A stretch of 64,000 nucleotides of DNA from the NCBI RefSeq assembly GCF_988242995.1, contig NZ_OZ547043.1; one strand, given 5' to 3'. This document shows positions 12,001 to 18,000 of this stretch, in pieces (positions within the stretch are counted from its first letter, which is position 1; every line of letters begins with the position of its first letter). The position numbers were made by a program.

Positions 12001-15000
12001 TCTACCGCTGGCCTCACGCTTTACTTGGTAATGACCCGGCACCACAAACGACGAATATTTTCAGCCATCTTCTTTTACCCTCCACGTCATCGTTGTTAAT
12101 TTGGTTTCCGTGTCTATTCCTGGTTTGTGGATGGTTATATCTCTGGAAGCGCAGGCCGCAATTTACGCCAGTAGATGTGATTGAAACCGATGTCATTCCG
12201 CCAGATTACACGCCCGGCATGTTACGTCTCGATGCGAAGCTGGTTTACGACGATAAAGGTTTTTGTGCCGATATTGTAAATCTGATTGTGAAAGGCAAAA
12301 TTCATATGGAAGATCAGTATGACAAGAACCAGCAAATCCTGATTCGTGTTAATGAAGGCGCGACCAGAAATAATGCGGTTTTACTGCCCGCAGAGCAGTT
12401 TTTACTGGAAGCGTTATTTCGTAAAGGCGATAAGGTCGTTCTTACGGGGAGACGCAATAGAGTCTTACGCAGGGCATTTTTACGGATGCAGAAATTTTAT
12501 CTGCCGCGTAAAAAGTCTTCGTTTTACCGACCTGATACGTTTTTGCAATGGGGCGGAATGGCAATATTGGCGGTCATTCTCTACGGTAACCTGAGTCCCG
12601 TAGGCTGGGCAGGAATGAGTCTGGTGGGCGATATGTTTATTATGATCTGCTGGCTTCTTCCTTTTTTATTTTGTTCCCTTGAGCTTTTGTTTGCCCGCGA
12701 TGATGACAAGCCTTGCGTTAATCGTGTAATCATCACTTTGTTTTTACCACTGATTTGTTCAAGCGTGGCCTTCTATTCTCTCTATATCAATGTCGGAGAT
12801 GTATTCTTTTACTGGTATATGCCAGCGGGTTATTTTAGCGCTGTTTTCCTGACCGGTTATCTCACTGGCATAGGGTATATTTTTCTGCCAAAGTTTACCC
12901 AAATTGGGCAGCAACGTTATGCCCACGGTGAAGCTATCGTTAACTATCTTGCGCGTAAAGAGGCGGCAACACACAGTGGGCGGCGGCGGAAAGGGGAAAC
13001 ACGGAAACTGGATTACGCATTGTTAGGTTGGGCGGTCTCGGCAAACCTTGGCAGAGAATGGGCAGAACGTATCACCCCATCACTCACAGCGGCTGTTAGC
13101 GCCCCGGAAATTGCCCGTAGTGGCGTTTTATTCTCATTGCAGACGCACCTGAGTTGCGGGGCCTATACCAGTTTGTTGGGGCGAAGCTATTCCGGTGGTG
13201 GTGCTGGCGGCGGTACGGGTGGCGGAGGCGGTGGTGGTTGGTAACCAAATCGACGTTAATCGAAACAAGCTTTAACCATAAAGATAGTGTAGTATGTTGC
13301 GCCTCAAAGCCAGGCCGATAAACGTCGAGTCGTTTACTTAAGGCCTGAAGAGTTCAAACAGACTTTACTATCAGTGAGTCAGATGTAAGTTCTGACTCAT
13401 TGTTGCACAAAAGCATATCAGACGCCTGGGAAGGCGACACCAAAAGGAAGCTCTATGAGCGAAAAGCTACAGAAAGTGCTGGCGCGTGCCGGCCACGGTT
13501 CTCGCCGTGAAATCGAATCTATTATTGAAGCCGGTCGTGTGAGTGTTGATGGCAAAATTGCTAAACTCGGCGATCGTGTTGAAATTACCCCTGGATTGAA
13601 AATCCGTATCGATGGTCACCTGATTTCGGTACGTGAGTCCGCTGAACAAATTTGTCGCGTTCTGGCCTATTACAAACCGGAAGGTGAGTTGTGTACCCGT
13701 AACGATCCGGAAGGACGTCCAACGGTGTTTGACCGTCTGCCAAAACTGCGTGGCGCACGCTGGATTGCCGTGGGTCGCCTGGACGTTAATACCTGTGGTC
13801 TGCTGCTGTTCACCACCGATGGTGAACTGGCAAACCGTTTAATGCACCCAAGCCGTGAAGTTGAACGTGAATATGCCGTGCGTGTATTTGGTCAGGTTGA
13901 CGACGCGAAACTGCGTGATTTGAGTCGTGGCGTGCAGCTGGAAGATGGTCCGGCAGCCTTTAAAACCATCAAGTTCAGCGGCGGCGAAGGGATCAACCAG
14001 TGGTACAACGTAACTCTGACCGAAGGCCGTAACCGTGAAGTTCGTCGTCTTTGGGAAGCGGTTGGTGTGCAGGTAAGCCGCCTGATCCGTGTTCGTTACG
14101 GTGATATCCCACTGCCGAAAGGTCTGCCACGCGGTGGCTGGACGGAGCTGGACCTCGCCCAGACTAACTATCTGCGCGAACTGGTGGAGCTACCGCCAGA
14201 AACCAGCTCTAAAGTCGCTGTAGAAAAAGACCGTCGTCGTATGAAGGCGAATCAGATTCGTCGAGCGGTTAAGCGTCACAGTCAGGTGAGCGGCGGTCGT
14301 CGTTCTGGTGGACGTAATAATAACGGTTAATTTAAGATAAGTATAAAATAAAGGCCCTGCGGGGCCTTTTCTTCATTTGAAGCATGATAAATAGTCGCAG
14401 TATTTTAATTTAATTTCATACTTGCTTATGAATAATACCCGGAAATAGCCACATTACTATTTAATTATCTGAGATAAACTCAACGTCAAGAGGTGGGTTA
14501 TGATTAGATATAGTGGAATATTTCTATCGCTGTTAATGCTTTCAGGTTGTGCAACTGAAGCATTGAAAAACGAACAAGCTGAAACTGTTATTACTGCGGG
14601 TAACAAAGCAGTAGCGGCGAATGCAAGTTTCTTTAAACAATACTATGCTTCTCGTGAAAACTTCCTTGTTAATTTTTATGCGACTAATCCGGATTGTGCA
14701 CCTCGACCAGATTATGAGGTAGTTATTGAAAACAGTACCAGTGATGAGTCATTATGTCAGCAACCTGGAGATAAGCACAAAAAATCTCAAGAAGATCTTT
14801 TTATTACAAAGATAGTCGCTACTGAAAAAGAAAGATTGCTGGCTTCTATGGAAATCATTAGCAGTATGAGTTCTTATGTCGAACTTTTGAATGAGGATTT
14901 AGATGTTAAAGACAGCAAACAGTTCATATTGCTTAAACAAGCTCTGGATCACGCGAATAATGCGGGGGCACTTCTGGGCATCAATGATGGTGGAACATTA

Positions 15001-18000
15001 ACAAAATCTGCAGCAGCGGTTAAAGATTTAGTGGTTTATTTCAATGGGTTGTATAATACAAGGGTAAGCGCAGGGAATATAGGTAGTACGGTAAATAATC
15101 ATTGGCAAAGAATAAAAAATGATCTAACTGATATACGAAACGATATCGCGACAAAAGGTAAACAAACTGGAAGAAATACCTTTGCGACGGTACATAATAA
15201 TCTCGTTTATTACAATGCCTCCTTAAAAAAAGGAGGAGGTAATGAATTTAAGACATTGAAGAGCAGACAAGAATTCCTGGCTGCGATTATCAGTATTAAT
15301 GAAACACGTCTTCGTGCAGCAGATCCAGCTATTCCAGCAATACAAGCACTGAACTCATTTCTTGACGAGGGGAATCACCTTAAGGATTTATACACTAATA
15401 AAATACGCACAGCGGCTGAACAAAAAAGGCTAAATGAAATATTACGCGCACAGGTCATTAGTGGGTTAAAGGCGTCTGAGGGGCTGGCAAAACTACTTAT
15501 TGCCAGCGGAATAATGTTATAGGAGGGGCTTTTTATGAACGATGTACAAAACCGTAGAATATTGGCATTACTTGATATGCTGTATAATACTCTGGGCAAC
15601 AAAACCACATGCAAGGTTTGTCATAAATATTTTATCCTTATCCTCACGGTGATGAACAATCTGACGATTAACTACGGTACTGAAACTTCGCCAGAGTTAA
15701 GCGGAATCAGTTATGAAGATGCCAATGCGTTAATTACTGAACTGATATTATTTATTGAAGATGTTGACGCTGAGAATCATGAAGCATATCCGGGACATTT
15801 GAATGAGATTAAACGGATTCTGAGTTTTGCTATTGCCGCTTGAATATAATTATGATTAAAGCACCTCAAGAGGCGATCTTTTGAGGTGCTTTCACTTAAT
15901 AATCAATCCCTATTTGCGCCTTAACACCGGCATCAAACGCATGTTTGATGGGGCGCAGCTCACTTACCGTATCCGCCAATTCAAGAATATCCCGATGACA
16001 ACCACGACCCGTGATAATCACCGTCTGTTGATGTGGACGTTCATTTAACGCCTGCACCACTTCTTCCAGTGGCAAATAGTCATACGCCACCATATACGTC
16101 AGTTCATCGAGCAAAACCATATCCAGTGAAGGATTGGCAAGCATCCGCTTTGCATGTTGCCAGACTTCGCGACAGGCGGCGGTATCAGACTCGCGGTTTT
16201 GTGTATCCCAGGTAAAGCCCGTTGCCATCACCTGAAATTCAACGCCGTGTGGTTCCAGCAGATTTCGTTCGCCATTAGGCCAGGCGCCTTTAATAAACTG
16301 CACGACGCCCACTTTTTTTCCGTGACCAACTGCGCGTGTTGCCGTACCAAATGCCGCGGTGGTTTTGCCTTTTCCATTGCCGGTAAAGACGATGATAATA
16401 CCGCGTTCATCCTGGGCCTGGGCCACACGAGCATCGACTTTTTCTTTCACTCGCTGCTGACGCTGTTGGTAGCGTTCATCACTCATTGGGAAATTCCTGG
16501 TTTACGGCCCGGTTGGGCGTCAAAGGTCATGCCGGTTTTACGGCGGCTGTCATCACCCATCAGCCAGAGGTAGAGCGGCATGATATCAGCGGGTGTTTTA
16601 AGTTTCTGTGGATCTTCGGTCGGGAAGGCGCTGGCACGCATTGCGGTGCGCGTACCGCCTGGGTTAATGCAGTTGACGCGCAGGCGCTGCTGATATTCAT
16701 CGGCCAGTACCTGCATCATCCCTTCGGTGGCAAATTTCGACGCTGCATATGCGCCCCAGTTTGCACGCCCCTGACGTCCAACGCTTGATGAAGTAAAGAC
16801 CAGTGAACCCGCGTCCGATTTGAGTAATAAAGGAAGCAGTGCCTGGGTGAGCATAAAGGTAGCATTAACGTTGACCTGCATGACGTCCTGCCAGACCTGC
16901 GGATTTTGTTCGCTCATTGGGCAAACATCGCCGAGCAATCCGGCATTATGCAAAACACCATCCAGACGCGGATAATTAACGGCAATGCGCTGCGCCAGTT
17001 GTTGGCAATCTTCGGACGTGCAGGTCAGCAAATCGAGAATAAACCACTGTGGCTGACGCCCAGTTTCTTCGTTTATGTGGCTGGCTACCTGACGTAATTT
17101 TTCTTCATTACGGCCTAACAGAATCACTGTCGCACCATAGCGTGCATACGTCATCGCGGCTTCACGGCCAATACCATCGCTGGCTCCCGTCACCAGGATA
17201 ATGCGATCATTGAGTAAATCTTGTTTTGGCTGGTAATGCATGGCTACTCCTCAACGACGTTGTCTGTCGCGCTGCCAGTGTACTTTATGACTTTGGGGCT
17301 TTATGCCTGAAACAGAAGGGCATTTCAATCAGCCTGGGGCGATAACACCGCAAAATGGATACTTTGTCATACTTTCGCTGCAATAACATCTCTGCGAGAC
17401 GGCTTAACATGCCTGTTGTAAACTGTCAGCCAAAGCGTTGTTTAACCAAGGTGGGGACTCGTGGAATTGTTGTCTGAATATGGTTTGTTTTTGGCGAAAA
17501 TCGTTACCGTTGTGCTAGCGATTGCGGCGATTGCCGCCATTATTGTCAATGTTGCTCAACGTAATAAACGCCAGCGTGGCGAGTTACGGGTCAACAATCT
17601 CAGCGAACAGTATAAGGAGATGAAAGAAGAACTGGCCGCGGCGCTGATGGACTCACATCAGCAAAAACAGTGGCACAAAGCGCAGAAGAAAAAGCACAAG
17701 CAAGAAGCGAAAGCAGCAAAAGCGAAAGCCAAACTGGGCGAGGTGGCAACTGACAGTAAACCTCGCGTCTGGGTGCTGGATTTTAAAGGCAGCATGGACG
17801 CCCATGAAGTGAACTCGCTACGTGAAGAGATAACGGCGGTACTCGCAGCATTCAAACCGCAGGATCAGGTTGTGCTACGTCTGGAAAGCCCTGGTGGCAT
17901 GGTGCATGGTTACGGGCTGGCGGCTTCGCAGCTGCAGCGTCTGCGTGATAAAAACATTCCTTTAACTGTTACGGTAGACAAAGTCGCTGCCAGTGGCGGT

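What the first reader, a model, noticed from the sequence alone, without database searches (positions are those of the whole stretch)
14351..15893. Islet lies between two terminator hairpins, suggesting insertion into the rluB-btuR terminator region
A canonical hairpin with T-run follows rluB (14351-14374) and a second strong inverted repeat (aaagcacctcaa / ttgaggtgcttt) sits between the small islet ORF and the btuR stop (15858-15893). The AT-rich DNA starts immediately after the first hairpin. This layout would let the islet be transcribed independently and may mark the junctions of the acquired DNA.
Basis: seen in the sequence. Interest (0 to 1): 0.3.

Follow-up and report, generated by a model that had tools for sequence, protein, structure and literature searches.

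The report
Two terminators bracket an old gene cassette
Two real terminator-type hairpins bracket a 1.5-kb AT-rich two-gene cassette between the E. coli genes rluB and btuR; the first is the ancestral terminator of that gene pair, and the whole arrangement is an old, ordinary accessory-gene polymorphism, not a recent insertion.

Summary
Hairpin 1 has an 8-bp GC stem (14350-14369) and a T-run. Hairpin 2 has a 15-bp stem (15858-15892; z = -6.7).

The window is E. coli. In 5,426 complete genomes, 1,237 (23%) carry the islet and 4,182 (77%) carry a 39-nt spacer instead. Homology between these two haplotypes ends at the rluB and btuR stop codons. The empty spacer holds an unrelated REP-like palindrome, and there are no junction repeats. 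So the E. coli empty allele is not the pre-insertion site.

Their empty spacers hold a single terminator that is near-identical to hairpin 1 (29/30 nt in one pair). In a Citrobacter lineage, hairpin 2 is a second copy of that terminator (19/20-nt direct repeat). In E. coli that resemblance is faint.

The cassette encodes a lipoprotein and a small protein, both under purifying selection. It has a conserved promoter-like leader. Its alleles within E. coli differ at dS >= 1.3. Remote relatives occur as a moron in a P2-like prophage.

The feature is an ordinary moron-like cassette insulated by terminators, and the function of its genes is unknown.

The parts
13455..14330 (+). rluB (23S rRNA pseudouridine synthase), left core flank. 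Its stop codon is the left homology breakpoint.
   Evidence: ORF list; RefSeq annotation of the identical strain MEW; alignment with empty sites.
14331..15895 (.). Haplotype-specific segment (1,565 bp, 37% GC against 51% for the window). It replaces the whole 39-nt spacer of islet-free E. coli.
14343..14381 (.). Hairpin 1, a bidirectional intrinsic terminator. A-tract, stem 14350-14357/14362-14369, loop TGCG, T-tract. It terminates rluB on the + strand and has a good T-run on the - strand as well. It is homologous to the single native terminator of empty sites in other genera.
14392..14432 (+). Conserved promoter-like core of the leader. TAGTCGCAG (14392-14400), then 17 variable nt after the candidate -35 GTCGCA, then TTCATACTTG (14415-14424, candidate -10 CATACT). 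It includes the palindrome TTCATA-N6-TATGAA (14415-14432).
   Evidence: Alignment of seven occupied loci from Escherichia and Citrobacter-like genomes. The sigma-70 scan did not flag it. Its role is inferred.
14500..15522 (+). ORF1, a 340-aa predicted lipoprotein (lipobox LSGC, Cys17). All-helical, with invariant C66, C86 and Y126. No known family.
15535..15843 (+). ORF2, a 102-aa partner protein that always follows ORF1-type genes. No known family.
15858..15892 (.). Hairpin 2, a 15-bp stem with loop GCGAT. It is the probable bidirectional terminator for the cassette (+) and for btuR-yciK (-), with short U-tracts on both strands.
15896..16486 (-). btuR/cobO, right core flank. Its stop codon is the right homology breakpoint. 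Its 3' roughly 350-500 bp is more divergent between strains than typical flanking DNA.

Best explanation
The rluB-btuR spacer exists as two old alternative haplotypes.

In the occupied one (this window), hairpin 1 is the ancestral bidirectional intrinsic terminator shared by the convergent genes rluB and btuR. It is retained on the rluB side. Immediately 3' of it lies an AT-rich, self-contained two-gene cassette: a conserved promoter-like leader, a lipoprotein gene and a small partner gene. Hairpin 2 closes the cassette and gives btuR a terminator again. Together the two hairpins insulate the cassette from the convergent core transcripts and let it be transcribed on its own.

Hairpin 2 is demonstrably a partial duplicate of the native terminator in one Citrobacter lineage. 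In E. coli it is at best a strongly diverged copy.

The E. coli islet-free allele is not the pre-insertion state. Its spacer holds an unrelated REP-like palindrome, so the two E. coli haplotypes lose homology exactly at the two stop codons.

The haplotypes are exchanged between strains by homologous recombination in the flanking core genes, not by a site-specific element.

Shown: the hairpins, the breakpoints, the homology of hairpin 1 to native terminators, the age of the alleles, and purifying selection on both genes.
Inferred: termination activity, promoter activity, the direction of the original event, and the recombinational spread.
For: - Hairpins: present and stable.
- Conservation: both hairpins occur in every occupied locus of E. 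coli, E. albertii, E. whittamii and Citrobacter-like genomes, with variable loops. Hairpin 2 shows two compensatory pair changes: A-T to C-G in the ANG330 group and G-C to A-T in E. albertii.
- Breakpoints: at the stop codons, with no similarity of the empty spacer to the islet ends and no junction repeats.
- Frequencies: 1,237 occupied and 4,182 K-12-type empty genomes out of 5,426.
- Hairpin 1 against native terminators in empty sites: L014 vs Pluralibacter 29/30 nt including the non-structural ATGC prefix; window vs RIT691 score 22 against 6.7 +/- 1.4 for shuffles. The empty metagenomic locus L109 has the identical stem and loop and the identical right junction.
- Hairpin 2 of L008/L013: equals the native terminator with an 18-nt loop insertion, and shares a 19/20 direct repeat with hairpin 1 (0 of 2,000 shuffles).
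- Synteny: the pair sits at the same rluB|btuR site across genera.
- Selection: dN/dS 0.10-0.25.
- Age: dS between islet alleles within E. coli is at least 1.3, against 0.06-0.10 for rluB. The E. coli L004 allele vs E. albertii gives dS 0.5-0.8, close to rluB at 0.69.
- Recombination: divergence is raised in the btuR 3' end and the ORF1 alleles are mosaic.
- Leader: invariant blocks at fixed spacing.
- Natural deletion: in strain Ec-U3 an IS1 replaces 14384-15853 and both hairpins are kept.
Against: - In E. coli, hairpin 2 resembles the native terminator only weakly (score 10-12 against 5.7 +/- 1.1). In E. albertii and L014 it does not resemble it at all.
- The duplicate in the ANG330 group could be a later gene conversion and not a trace of the insertion.
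- GC-stem terminators with A- and T-tracts can converge in sequence.
- Hairpin 2 has only three U after the stem on either strand, and the scan did not call it a terminator.
- No sigma-70 consensus promoter was found in the leader.
- No Escherichia genome or metagenome contig with hairpin 1 alone was found. The pre-insertion state in Escherichia is therefore unobserved.
- REP-type spacers also occur in Salmonella and the C. freundii complex, so the polarity of the event is unresolved.
Confidence: 0.7

Rival explanations
1. The literal first reading. A recent insertion of foreign DNA split or landed in the terminator that islet-free E. coli carry between rluB and btuR, and the two hairpins are its junction scars.
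For: The hairpins lie 20 nt and 3 nt from the homology breakpoints. The segment is AT-rich.
Against: The E. coli empty spacer has a different hairpin with no similarity to either islet end. There is no target duplication and there are no terminal repeats. The islet alleles are older than the species (dS at least 1.3) and are shared with E. albertii and Citrobacter-like genomes at the same site.
Confidence: 0.04
2. Both hairpins came with the cassette, as in a moron that carries its own terminators at both ends. The similarity of hairpin 1 to terminators in other genera's empty sites is convergence.
For: In E. coli, hairpin 1 is perfectly linked to the islet: 1,234 of the 1,237 matches cover the full leader, and no hairpin-1-only site was found. 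Remote cassette relatives end in their own unrelated terminator hairpins. GGCCC-type stems are common in terminators.
Against: The match extends beyond the structure-determining bases: 29/30 nt including the ATGC prefix, and an identical GA loop in L109. The hairpin sits at the same distance from the rluB stop in empty and occupied loci. Controls with other terminator types score at background.
Confidence: 0.14
3. Reversed polarity. The occupied haplotype is ancestral for the Escherichia/Citrobacter clade. Single-terminator empty sites arose by deletion between the two hairpin copies. The E. coli empty allele arose by deletion together with acquisition of a REP.
For: The islet is present in E. 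albertii, E. whittamii and cryptic Escherichia clades. The L004 allele differs from the E. albertii allele at species-level dS. The 19/20 direct repeat in the ANG330 group would allow a clean deletion that gives exactly the L109-type spacer.
Against: Only 1 of about 65 species-level loci with adjacent rluB and btuR is occupied. The cassette is 37% GC and has mobile relatives, which favours gain. Many independent losses would be needed.
Confidence: 0.12

Closest known systems
Bidirectional Rho-independent terminators between convergent genes
   Same: A GC-rich stem-loop flanked by an A-tract and a T-tract, placed just after the stop codons of convergent genes. It is conserved as a structure with variable loops and compensatory pairs. 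Most Enterobacteriaceae have exactly one in this spacer.
   Different: Here there are two, 1.5 kb apart, with a cassette between them. Hairpin 2 in E. coli has only a 3-U tract on either strand.
Phage 'morons' in the sense of Hendrix and colleagues (own knowledge): an extra transcription unit with its own promoter and terminator and deviant base composition, inserted between two otherwise adjacent genes
   Same: The cassette is AT-rich (37% against 51% GC). It sits between genes that are adjacent in most relatives. It has a conserved promoter-like leader and a terminal hairpin. A remote homologous pair sits between gpS and gpV of a P2-like prophage at 36% GC.
   Different: In the window the host is the chromosome backbone, not a prophage. 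Promoter and terminator activity are untested. No relative was found in deposited phage genomes.
REP/BIME palindromes in enterobacterial intergenic regions
   Same: The spacer of islet-free E. coli (the 39-nt K-12 type and the 49-nt L015 type) has the GCCGGA...TCCGGC palindrome. It resembles the REP pairs that fill this spacer in the C. freundii complex and in Salmonella arizonae.
   Different: It applies to the alternative allele, not to the hairpins in the window, which are single-copy. REP membership was judged by eye only.
Integrase-borne genomic islets flanked by att direct repeats
   Same: In the Citrobacter sp. ANG330 lineage, about 20 nt of the target terminator is repeated at both ends of the cassette.
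   Different: There is no integrase, no tRNA target and no repeat in E. coli. The cassette is only two genes.

Membership tests
Rho-independent terminator (hairpin 1) | GC-rich stem-loop directly followed by a U-tract | tested here: met
   8-bp stem with 5 GC pairs and a 4-nt loop, followed by TTTTCTTCATTT. Flagged on both strands.
Rho-independent terminator (hairpin 1) | Lies just downstream of a stop codon and is conserved in orthologous positions | tested here: met
   It starts 20 nt after the rluB stop. It is present in all occupied loci and as the only element of empty spacers in several genera.
Rho-independent terminator (hairpin 2) | GC-rich stem-loop directly followed by a U-tract | tested here: inconclusive
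   The stem is strong (15 bp, -22 kcal/mol, z = -6.7). Only UUU follows it on either strand, and the scan does not flag it. Citrobacter-like versions have 5-6 U.
Rho-independent terminator (hairpin 2) | Pairing maintained by compensatory changes | tested here: met
   A-T to C-G in the ANG330 group and G-C to A-T in the inner stem of E. albertii. Loops differ freely. Only about 9 distinct sequences were available.
Rho-independent terminator (both hairpins) | Transcript 3' ends map to the U-tract | not testable with these tools
   This needs term-seq or 3' RACE in an islet-positive strain.
Moron-type accessory transcription unit | Inserted between genes that are adjacent in related genomes, with deviant base composition | tested here: met
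   rluB and btuR are 30-100 nt apart in most of about 65 species loci and in 77% of E. coli genomes. The cassette is 37% GC against 51%.
Moron-type accessory transcription unit | Own promoter and own terminator | tested here: inconclusive
   The leader has invariant blocks at fixed 17-nt spacing but no consensus sigma-70 hit. A terminal hairpin is present.
Moron-type accessory transcription unit | Resides in a phage or prophage genome | tested here: not met
   The window locus is chromosomal backbone with no phage genes nearby. Only the remote relative L099 is in a P2-like prophage.
Transposon or insertion sequence | Terminal inverted repeats, target-site duplication and a transposase | tested here: not met
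   No junction repeats above chance. No transposase domain in either ORF.
Integrative genomic islet | Integrase gene and att direct repeats | tested here: not met
   No integrase. There are no direct repeats in E. coli. A 19/20-nt repeat exists only in the ANG330 lineage.
Known anti-phage defence systems (PADLOC) | Protein matches a defence-system model | tested here: not met
   No hits for ORF1 or ORF2 at E <= 1.
REP element (for the islet-free allele's hairpin) | Match to the REP consensus palindrome and membership of a dispersed family | tested here: inconclusive
   Similarity to the REP pairs in Citrobacter and Salmonella spacers was seen by eye. No formal family model was available, and Rfam gave nothing.

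The most novel reading that the evidence does not exclude
The lipoprotein-plus-small-protein pair is a mobile cassette without an integrase that homes to intrinsic-terminator hairpins and duplicates part of the hairpin on entry, as the 19/20-nt repeat in the Citrobacter lineage would suggest. It is kept as deeply divergent alleles because the exported lipoprotein is under diversifying pressure, for example from phage or from competitors. That would make it a new kind of terminator-targeting moron with a surface-exclusion role.
Probability: 0.1. Interest if true: 0.6.

Novelty: new member of a known kind. Interest (0 to 1): 0.3.

Why it matters
For the finding as posed, the result is mostly a correction. 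An "empty" allele in the same species cannot be assumed to be the pre-insertion site. Here it is a third state with a REP-like palindrome, and only comparison across genera reveals that hairpin 1 is the native terminator.

The locus is also a tidy example of how an accessory cassette can sit between convergent core genes without disturbing them, because each core gene keeps a terminator.

The more interesting by-product is the cassette itself. It is an uncharacterised lipoprotein/small-protein pair present in 23% of E. coli genomes, including UPEC 536, CE10 and JJ1887. Its allele classes are older than the species, and it has relatives in a P2-like prophage moron slot. That makes it a reasonable candidate for a phage-related or surface-related accessory function that nobody has tested.

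Tried and rejected
- Protein family searches: Pfam, NCBIfam, PADLOC and PHROGs gave nothing for ORF1 or ORF2, apart from a meaningless PlsX fragment at E = 0.03.
- PDB sequence searches found nothing.
- Rfam had only a sub-threshold chance hit.
- Literature searches for the gene pair or its protein accessions found nothing relevant.
- A supposed 33%-identity allele on 'plasmid' CP054249.1 proved to be a chromosomal fragment with homopolymer sequencing errors. I rejected it.
- My early figure of 88% btuR identity within E. coli came from one divergent reference (L015). The sliding profile shows that only the 3' roughly 350-500 bp is raised.
- The scan for a hairpin-1-only Escherichia empty site found none.
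- Alignment A3 contains a dummy row entered by mistake and was not used.
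Full report
**What is there**

The window is Escherichia coli. Positions 14100-16100 are 100% identical to strain MEW. The layout is as follows:
- rluB: 13455-14330, + strand
- ORF1: 14500-15522, + strand, 340 aa, with the lipoprotein signal ...LSGC
- ORF2: 15535-15843, + strand, 102 aa
- btuR/cobO: 15896-16486, - strand

GC content falls from 53% in rluB to 37% across 14331-15895, then returns to 51% in btuR.

**Checking the observation**

Hairpin 1 is AAAGGCCC-TGCG-GGGCCTTT (14350-14369) followed by TTTTCTTCATTT. The terminator scan flags it on both strands. It folds at -16.2 kcal/mol with z = -2.5.

Hairpin 2 is AAAGCACCTCAAGAG-GCGAT-CTTTTGAGGTGCTTT (15858-15892). It has 15 pairs and folds at -22.2 kcal/mol with z = -6.7; none of 200 shuffles is as stable. 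The scan did not call it a terminator because only three T follow the stem on either strand.

Both hairpins are single-copy in the window.

One detail needs correcting. The AT-rich DNA begins at the rluB stop, not after hairpin 1: positions 14331-14350 are 10% GC.

**Breakpoints within E. coli**

Of 5,426 complete genomes, 1,237 carry the islet leader. Another 4,182 carry a K-12-type junction in which rluB and btuR are 39 nt apart. Together these account for 5,419 genomes.

The empty spacer reads TCAAAGTATGCCGGACGTCATATCCGGCATTTTTACAGA. It has its own hairpin (ATGCCGGA/TCCGGCAT plus a T-run). It shows no more similarity to either end of the islet segment than shuffled sequence does: 128-489 of 500 shuffles score at least as well. 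A rarer 49-nt version (L015) looks like a REP element, as do the spacers of the C. freundii complex and Salmonella arizonae.

Homology between the two E. coli haplotypes therefore ends at the two stop codons. The whole spacer is replaced. No junction direct or inverted repeats exceed chance.

**What other genera show**

The same gene pair sits at the same rluB|btuR site in several other genomes:
- E. albertii
- E. whittamii
- Citrobacter-like genomes (Citrobacter sp. ANG330 and three uncultured relatives)

Both hairpins are present in all of them. The stem of hairpin 1 is invariant. Hairpin 2 keeps its pairing through two compensatory changes and has freely varying loops.

I examined 80 species-level btuR loci. 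In about 65 of them rluB lies next to btuR, and only E. whittamii is occupied. Most of the rest have a spacer of 30-100 nt with one hairpin and a T-run.

In several of these the hairpin is of the hairpin 1 type:
- Citrobacter sp. FP75.
- Enterobacteriaceae RIT691. The window's hairpin 1 scores 22 against it, compared with 6.7 +/- 1.4 for shuffles.
- "Bacterium 89".
- Pluralibacter. It is 29/30 identical to hairpin 1 of L014, including a non-structural ATGC prefix.

A metagenomic empty locus, L109, has flanks 76-85% identical to L008. Its spacer reads TAA-GGAAAAAGGCCCCGAGGGGCCTTTT-TTA. The stem and loop are identical to L008's hairpin 1, and the right junction is identical to L008's hairpin 2 junction.

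I conclude that hairpin 1 is the ancestral rluB/btuR terminator and that the cassette lies just 3' of it.

**Is hairpin 2 a second copy of the native terminator?**

In L008 and L013, hairpin 2 aligns to the native terminator over its full length apart from an 18-nt loop insertion. It also shares a 19/20-nt direct repeat with hairpin 1. None of 2,000 shuffles scores as well.

In E. coli the resemblance is weak. It scores 10-12 against 5.7 +/- 1.1, with 0-10 of 2,000 shuffles as good; unrelated terminators score at background. In E. albertii and L014 the resemblance is absent.

The duplication is therefore firm in one lineage. It may be either the trace of the original event or a later gene conversion.

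**Age and mode of spread**

Both ORFs are under purifying selection, with dN/dS of 0.10-0.25.

| Comparison | dS |
|---|---|
| Islet allele classes within E. coli, ORF1 | 1.3 |
| Islet allele classes within E. coli, ORF2 | saturated |
| rluB within E. coli | 0.06-0.10 |
| btuR within E. coli | 0.13-0.32 |
| E. coli L004 allele vs E. albertii allele | 0.5-0.8 |
| rluB, E. coli vs E. albertii | 0.69 |

The last two rows are similar, so at least that allele class has probably been at this site since the two species split.

DNA identity between allele classes is as follows:
- 64-74% in the ORF bodies
- about 91% in the first 250 bp, which covers the leader and the ORF1 N-terminus
- 80-94% in the adjoining 3' end of btuR
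- 98-100% further out

The ORF1 alleles are mosaic. This pattern points to exchange by homologous recombination in the flanks, not to site-specific insertion.

**Independent transcription**

The 129-nt leader keeps several invariant blocks across genera while the sequence between them varies:
- TAGTCGCAG
- TTCATACTTG, 17 nt after the candidate -35 GTCGCA
- ATTAC
- GGTGGGYTATG

This is promoter-like. It fails the sigma-70 consensus scan, so promoter activity is inferred.

In strain Ec-U3 an IS1 has replaced exactly 14384-15853 and left both hairpins in place. That is compatible with the hairpins being the parts the core genes need.

**What the cassette is**

None of the following identifies either protein:
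- Pfam, NCBIfam, PADLOC or PHROGs family models
- PDB sequence search
- Fold search

A profile search found 55 relatives. The full-length ones (324-357 aa) keep the lipobox cysteine, a second cysteine pair and one tyrosine. In all seven contexts I read, the lipoprotein gene is followed 9-25 nt later by an ORF of 96-107 aa. The partner in L099 is homologous to ORF2 (E = 2e-7).

The contexts are mobile or accessory:
- between gpS and gpV of a P2-like prophage, at 36% GC against about 58%
- beside a DDE transposase
- in an island with VapBC and Fic genes

The closest known concept is a moron-type accessory unit. The window copy is chromosomal, so it is not strictly a phage moron.

**Verdict**

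The hairpins are real and are most likely terminators. It is partly wrong: this is not a recent insertion into the E. coli terminator, the E. coli breakpoints are at the stop codons, and there are no junction repeats.

The arrangement is an ordinary kind of thing. The uncharacterised, deeply polymorphic cassette is the only part with some wider interest.

Noticed in passing
L095 (E. coli Ec-U3, NZ_CM192149.1) 2501-3362; equivalent to window 14384-15853: An IS1 replaces the whole interior of the islet, with no target duplication, and leaves hairpin 1 and hairpin 2 intact. This is a natural deletion variant.
   Followed up: yes
window 15896-16250 (3' part of btuR): Divergence between E. coli strains is raised here: 80-94% identity between islet-allele classes, and btuR dS of 0.13-0.32 against 0.06-0.10 for rluB. 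It is as if old divergence hitch-hikes with the islet.
   Followed up: partly
window 13001-13250 (3' end of yciQ, glycine-rich tail ...GGGAGGGTGGGGGGGW): Identity to other E. coli strains drops to 82-90% in this 250-bp bin, while neighbouring bins are 96-99%. The low-complexity C-terminal tail appears to be variable.
   Followed up: no
window 14415-14432: A small palindrome, TTCATA-N6-TATGAA, lies inside the invariant leader block. It could be an operator for an unknown regulator.
   Followed up: no
L014 1196-1226 vs L063 spacer (Pluralibacter sp. UBA7423): The terminator region is 29/30 nt identical between genomes whose flanking genes differ by roughly 20% in DNA. That is unusually strong conservation for an intergenic hairpin, or it reflects horizontal exchange.
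   Followed up: partly
L099 3763-5539 (GCA_051414855.1, P2-like prophage): A remote homologue of the ORF1-ORF2 pair (357 aa plus 96 aa, 36% GC) occupies the gap between gpS and gpV. From memory, this is the slot where phage P2 carries its non-essential orf30.
   Followed up: partly
ORF1 residues C66, C86, Y126 (window 14695-14697, 14755-14757, 14875-14877): These three residues, together with the lipobox cysteine, are the only invariant positions across 36 family members at 14-68% identity. A disulfide in an exported protein is likely.
   Followed up: no
PLSDB records CP054249.1 (33 kb), CP054253.1 (253 kb), NZ_CP134663.1 (4.9 Mb): These records are filed as plasmids but carry the chromosomal trp-rluB-btuR region. 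CP054249.1 also has many homopolymer errors that frameshift the islet genes.
   Followed up: yes
window 14313-14327 (rluB C-terminus): rluB shows a codon-length polymorphism. AATAATAAC gives 291 aa in K-12 and in the window; AATAAC gives 290 aa in Sakai and FDAARGOS_403. This explains the 475-bp and 472-bp classes of empty sites.
   Followed up: no
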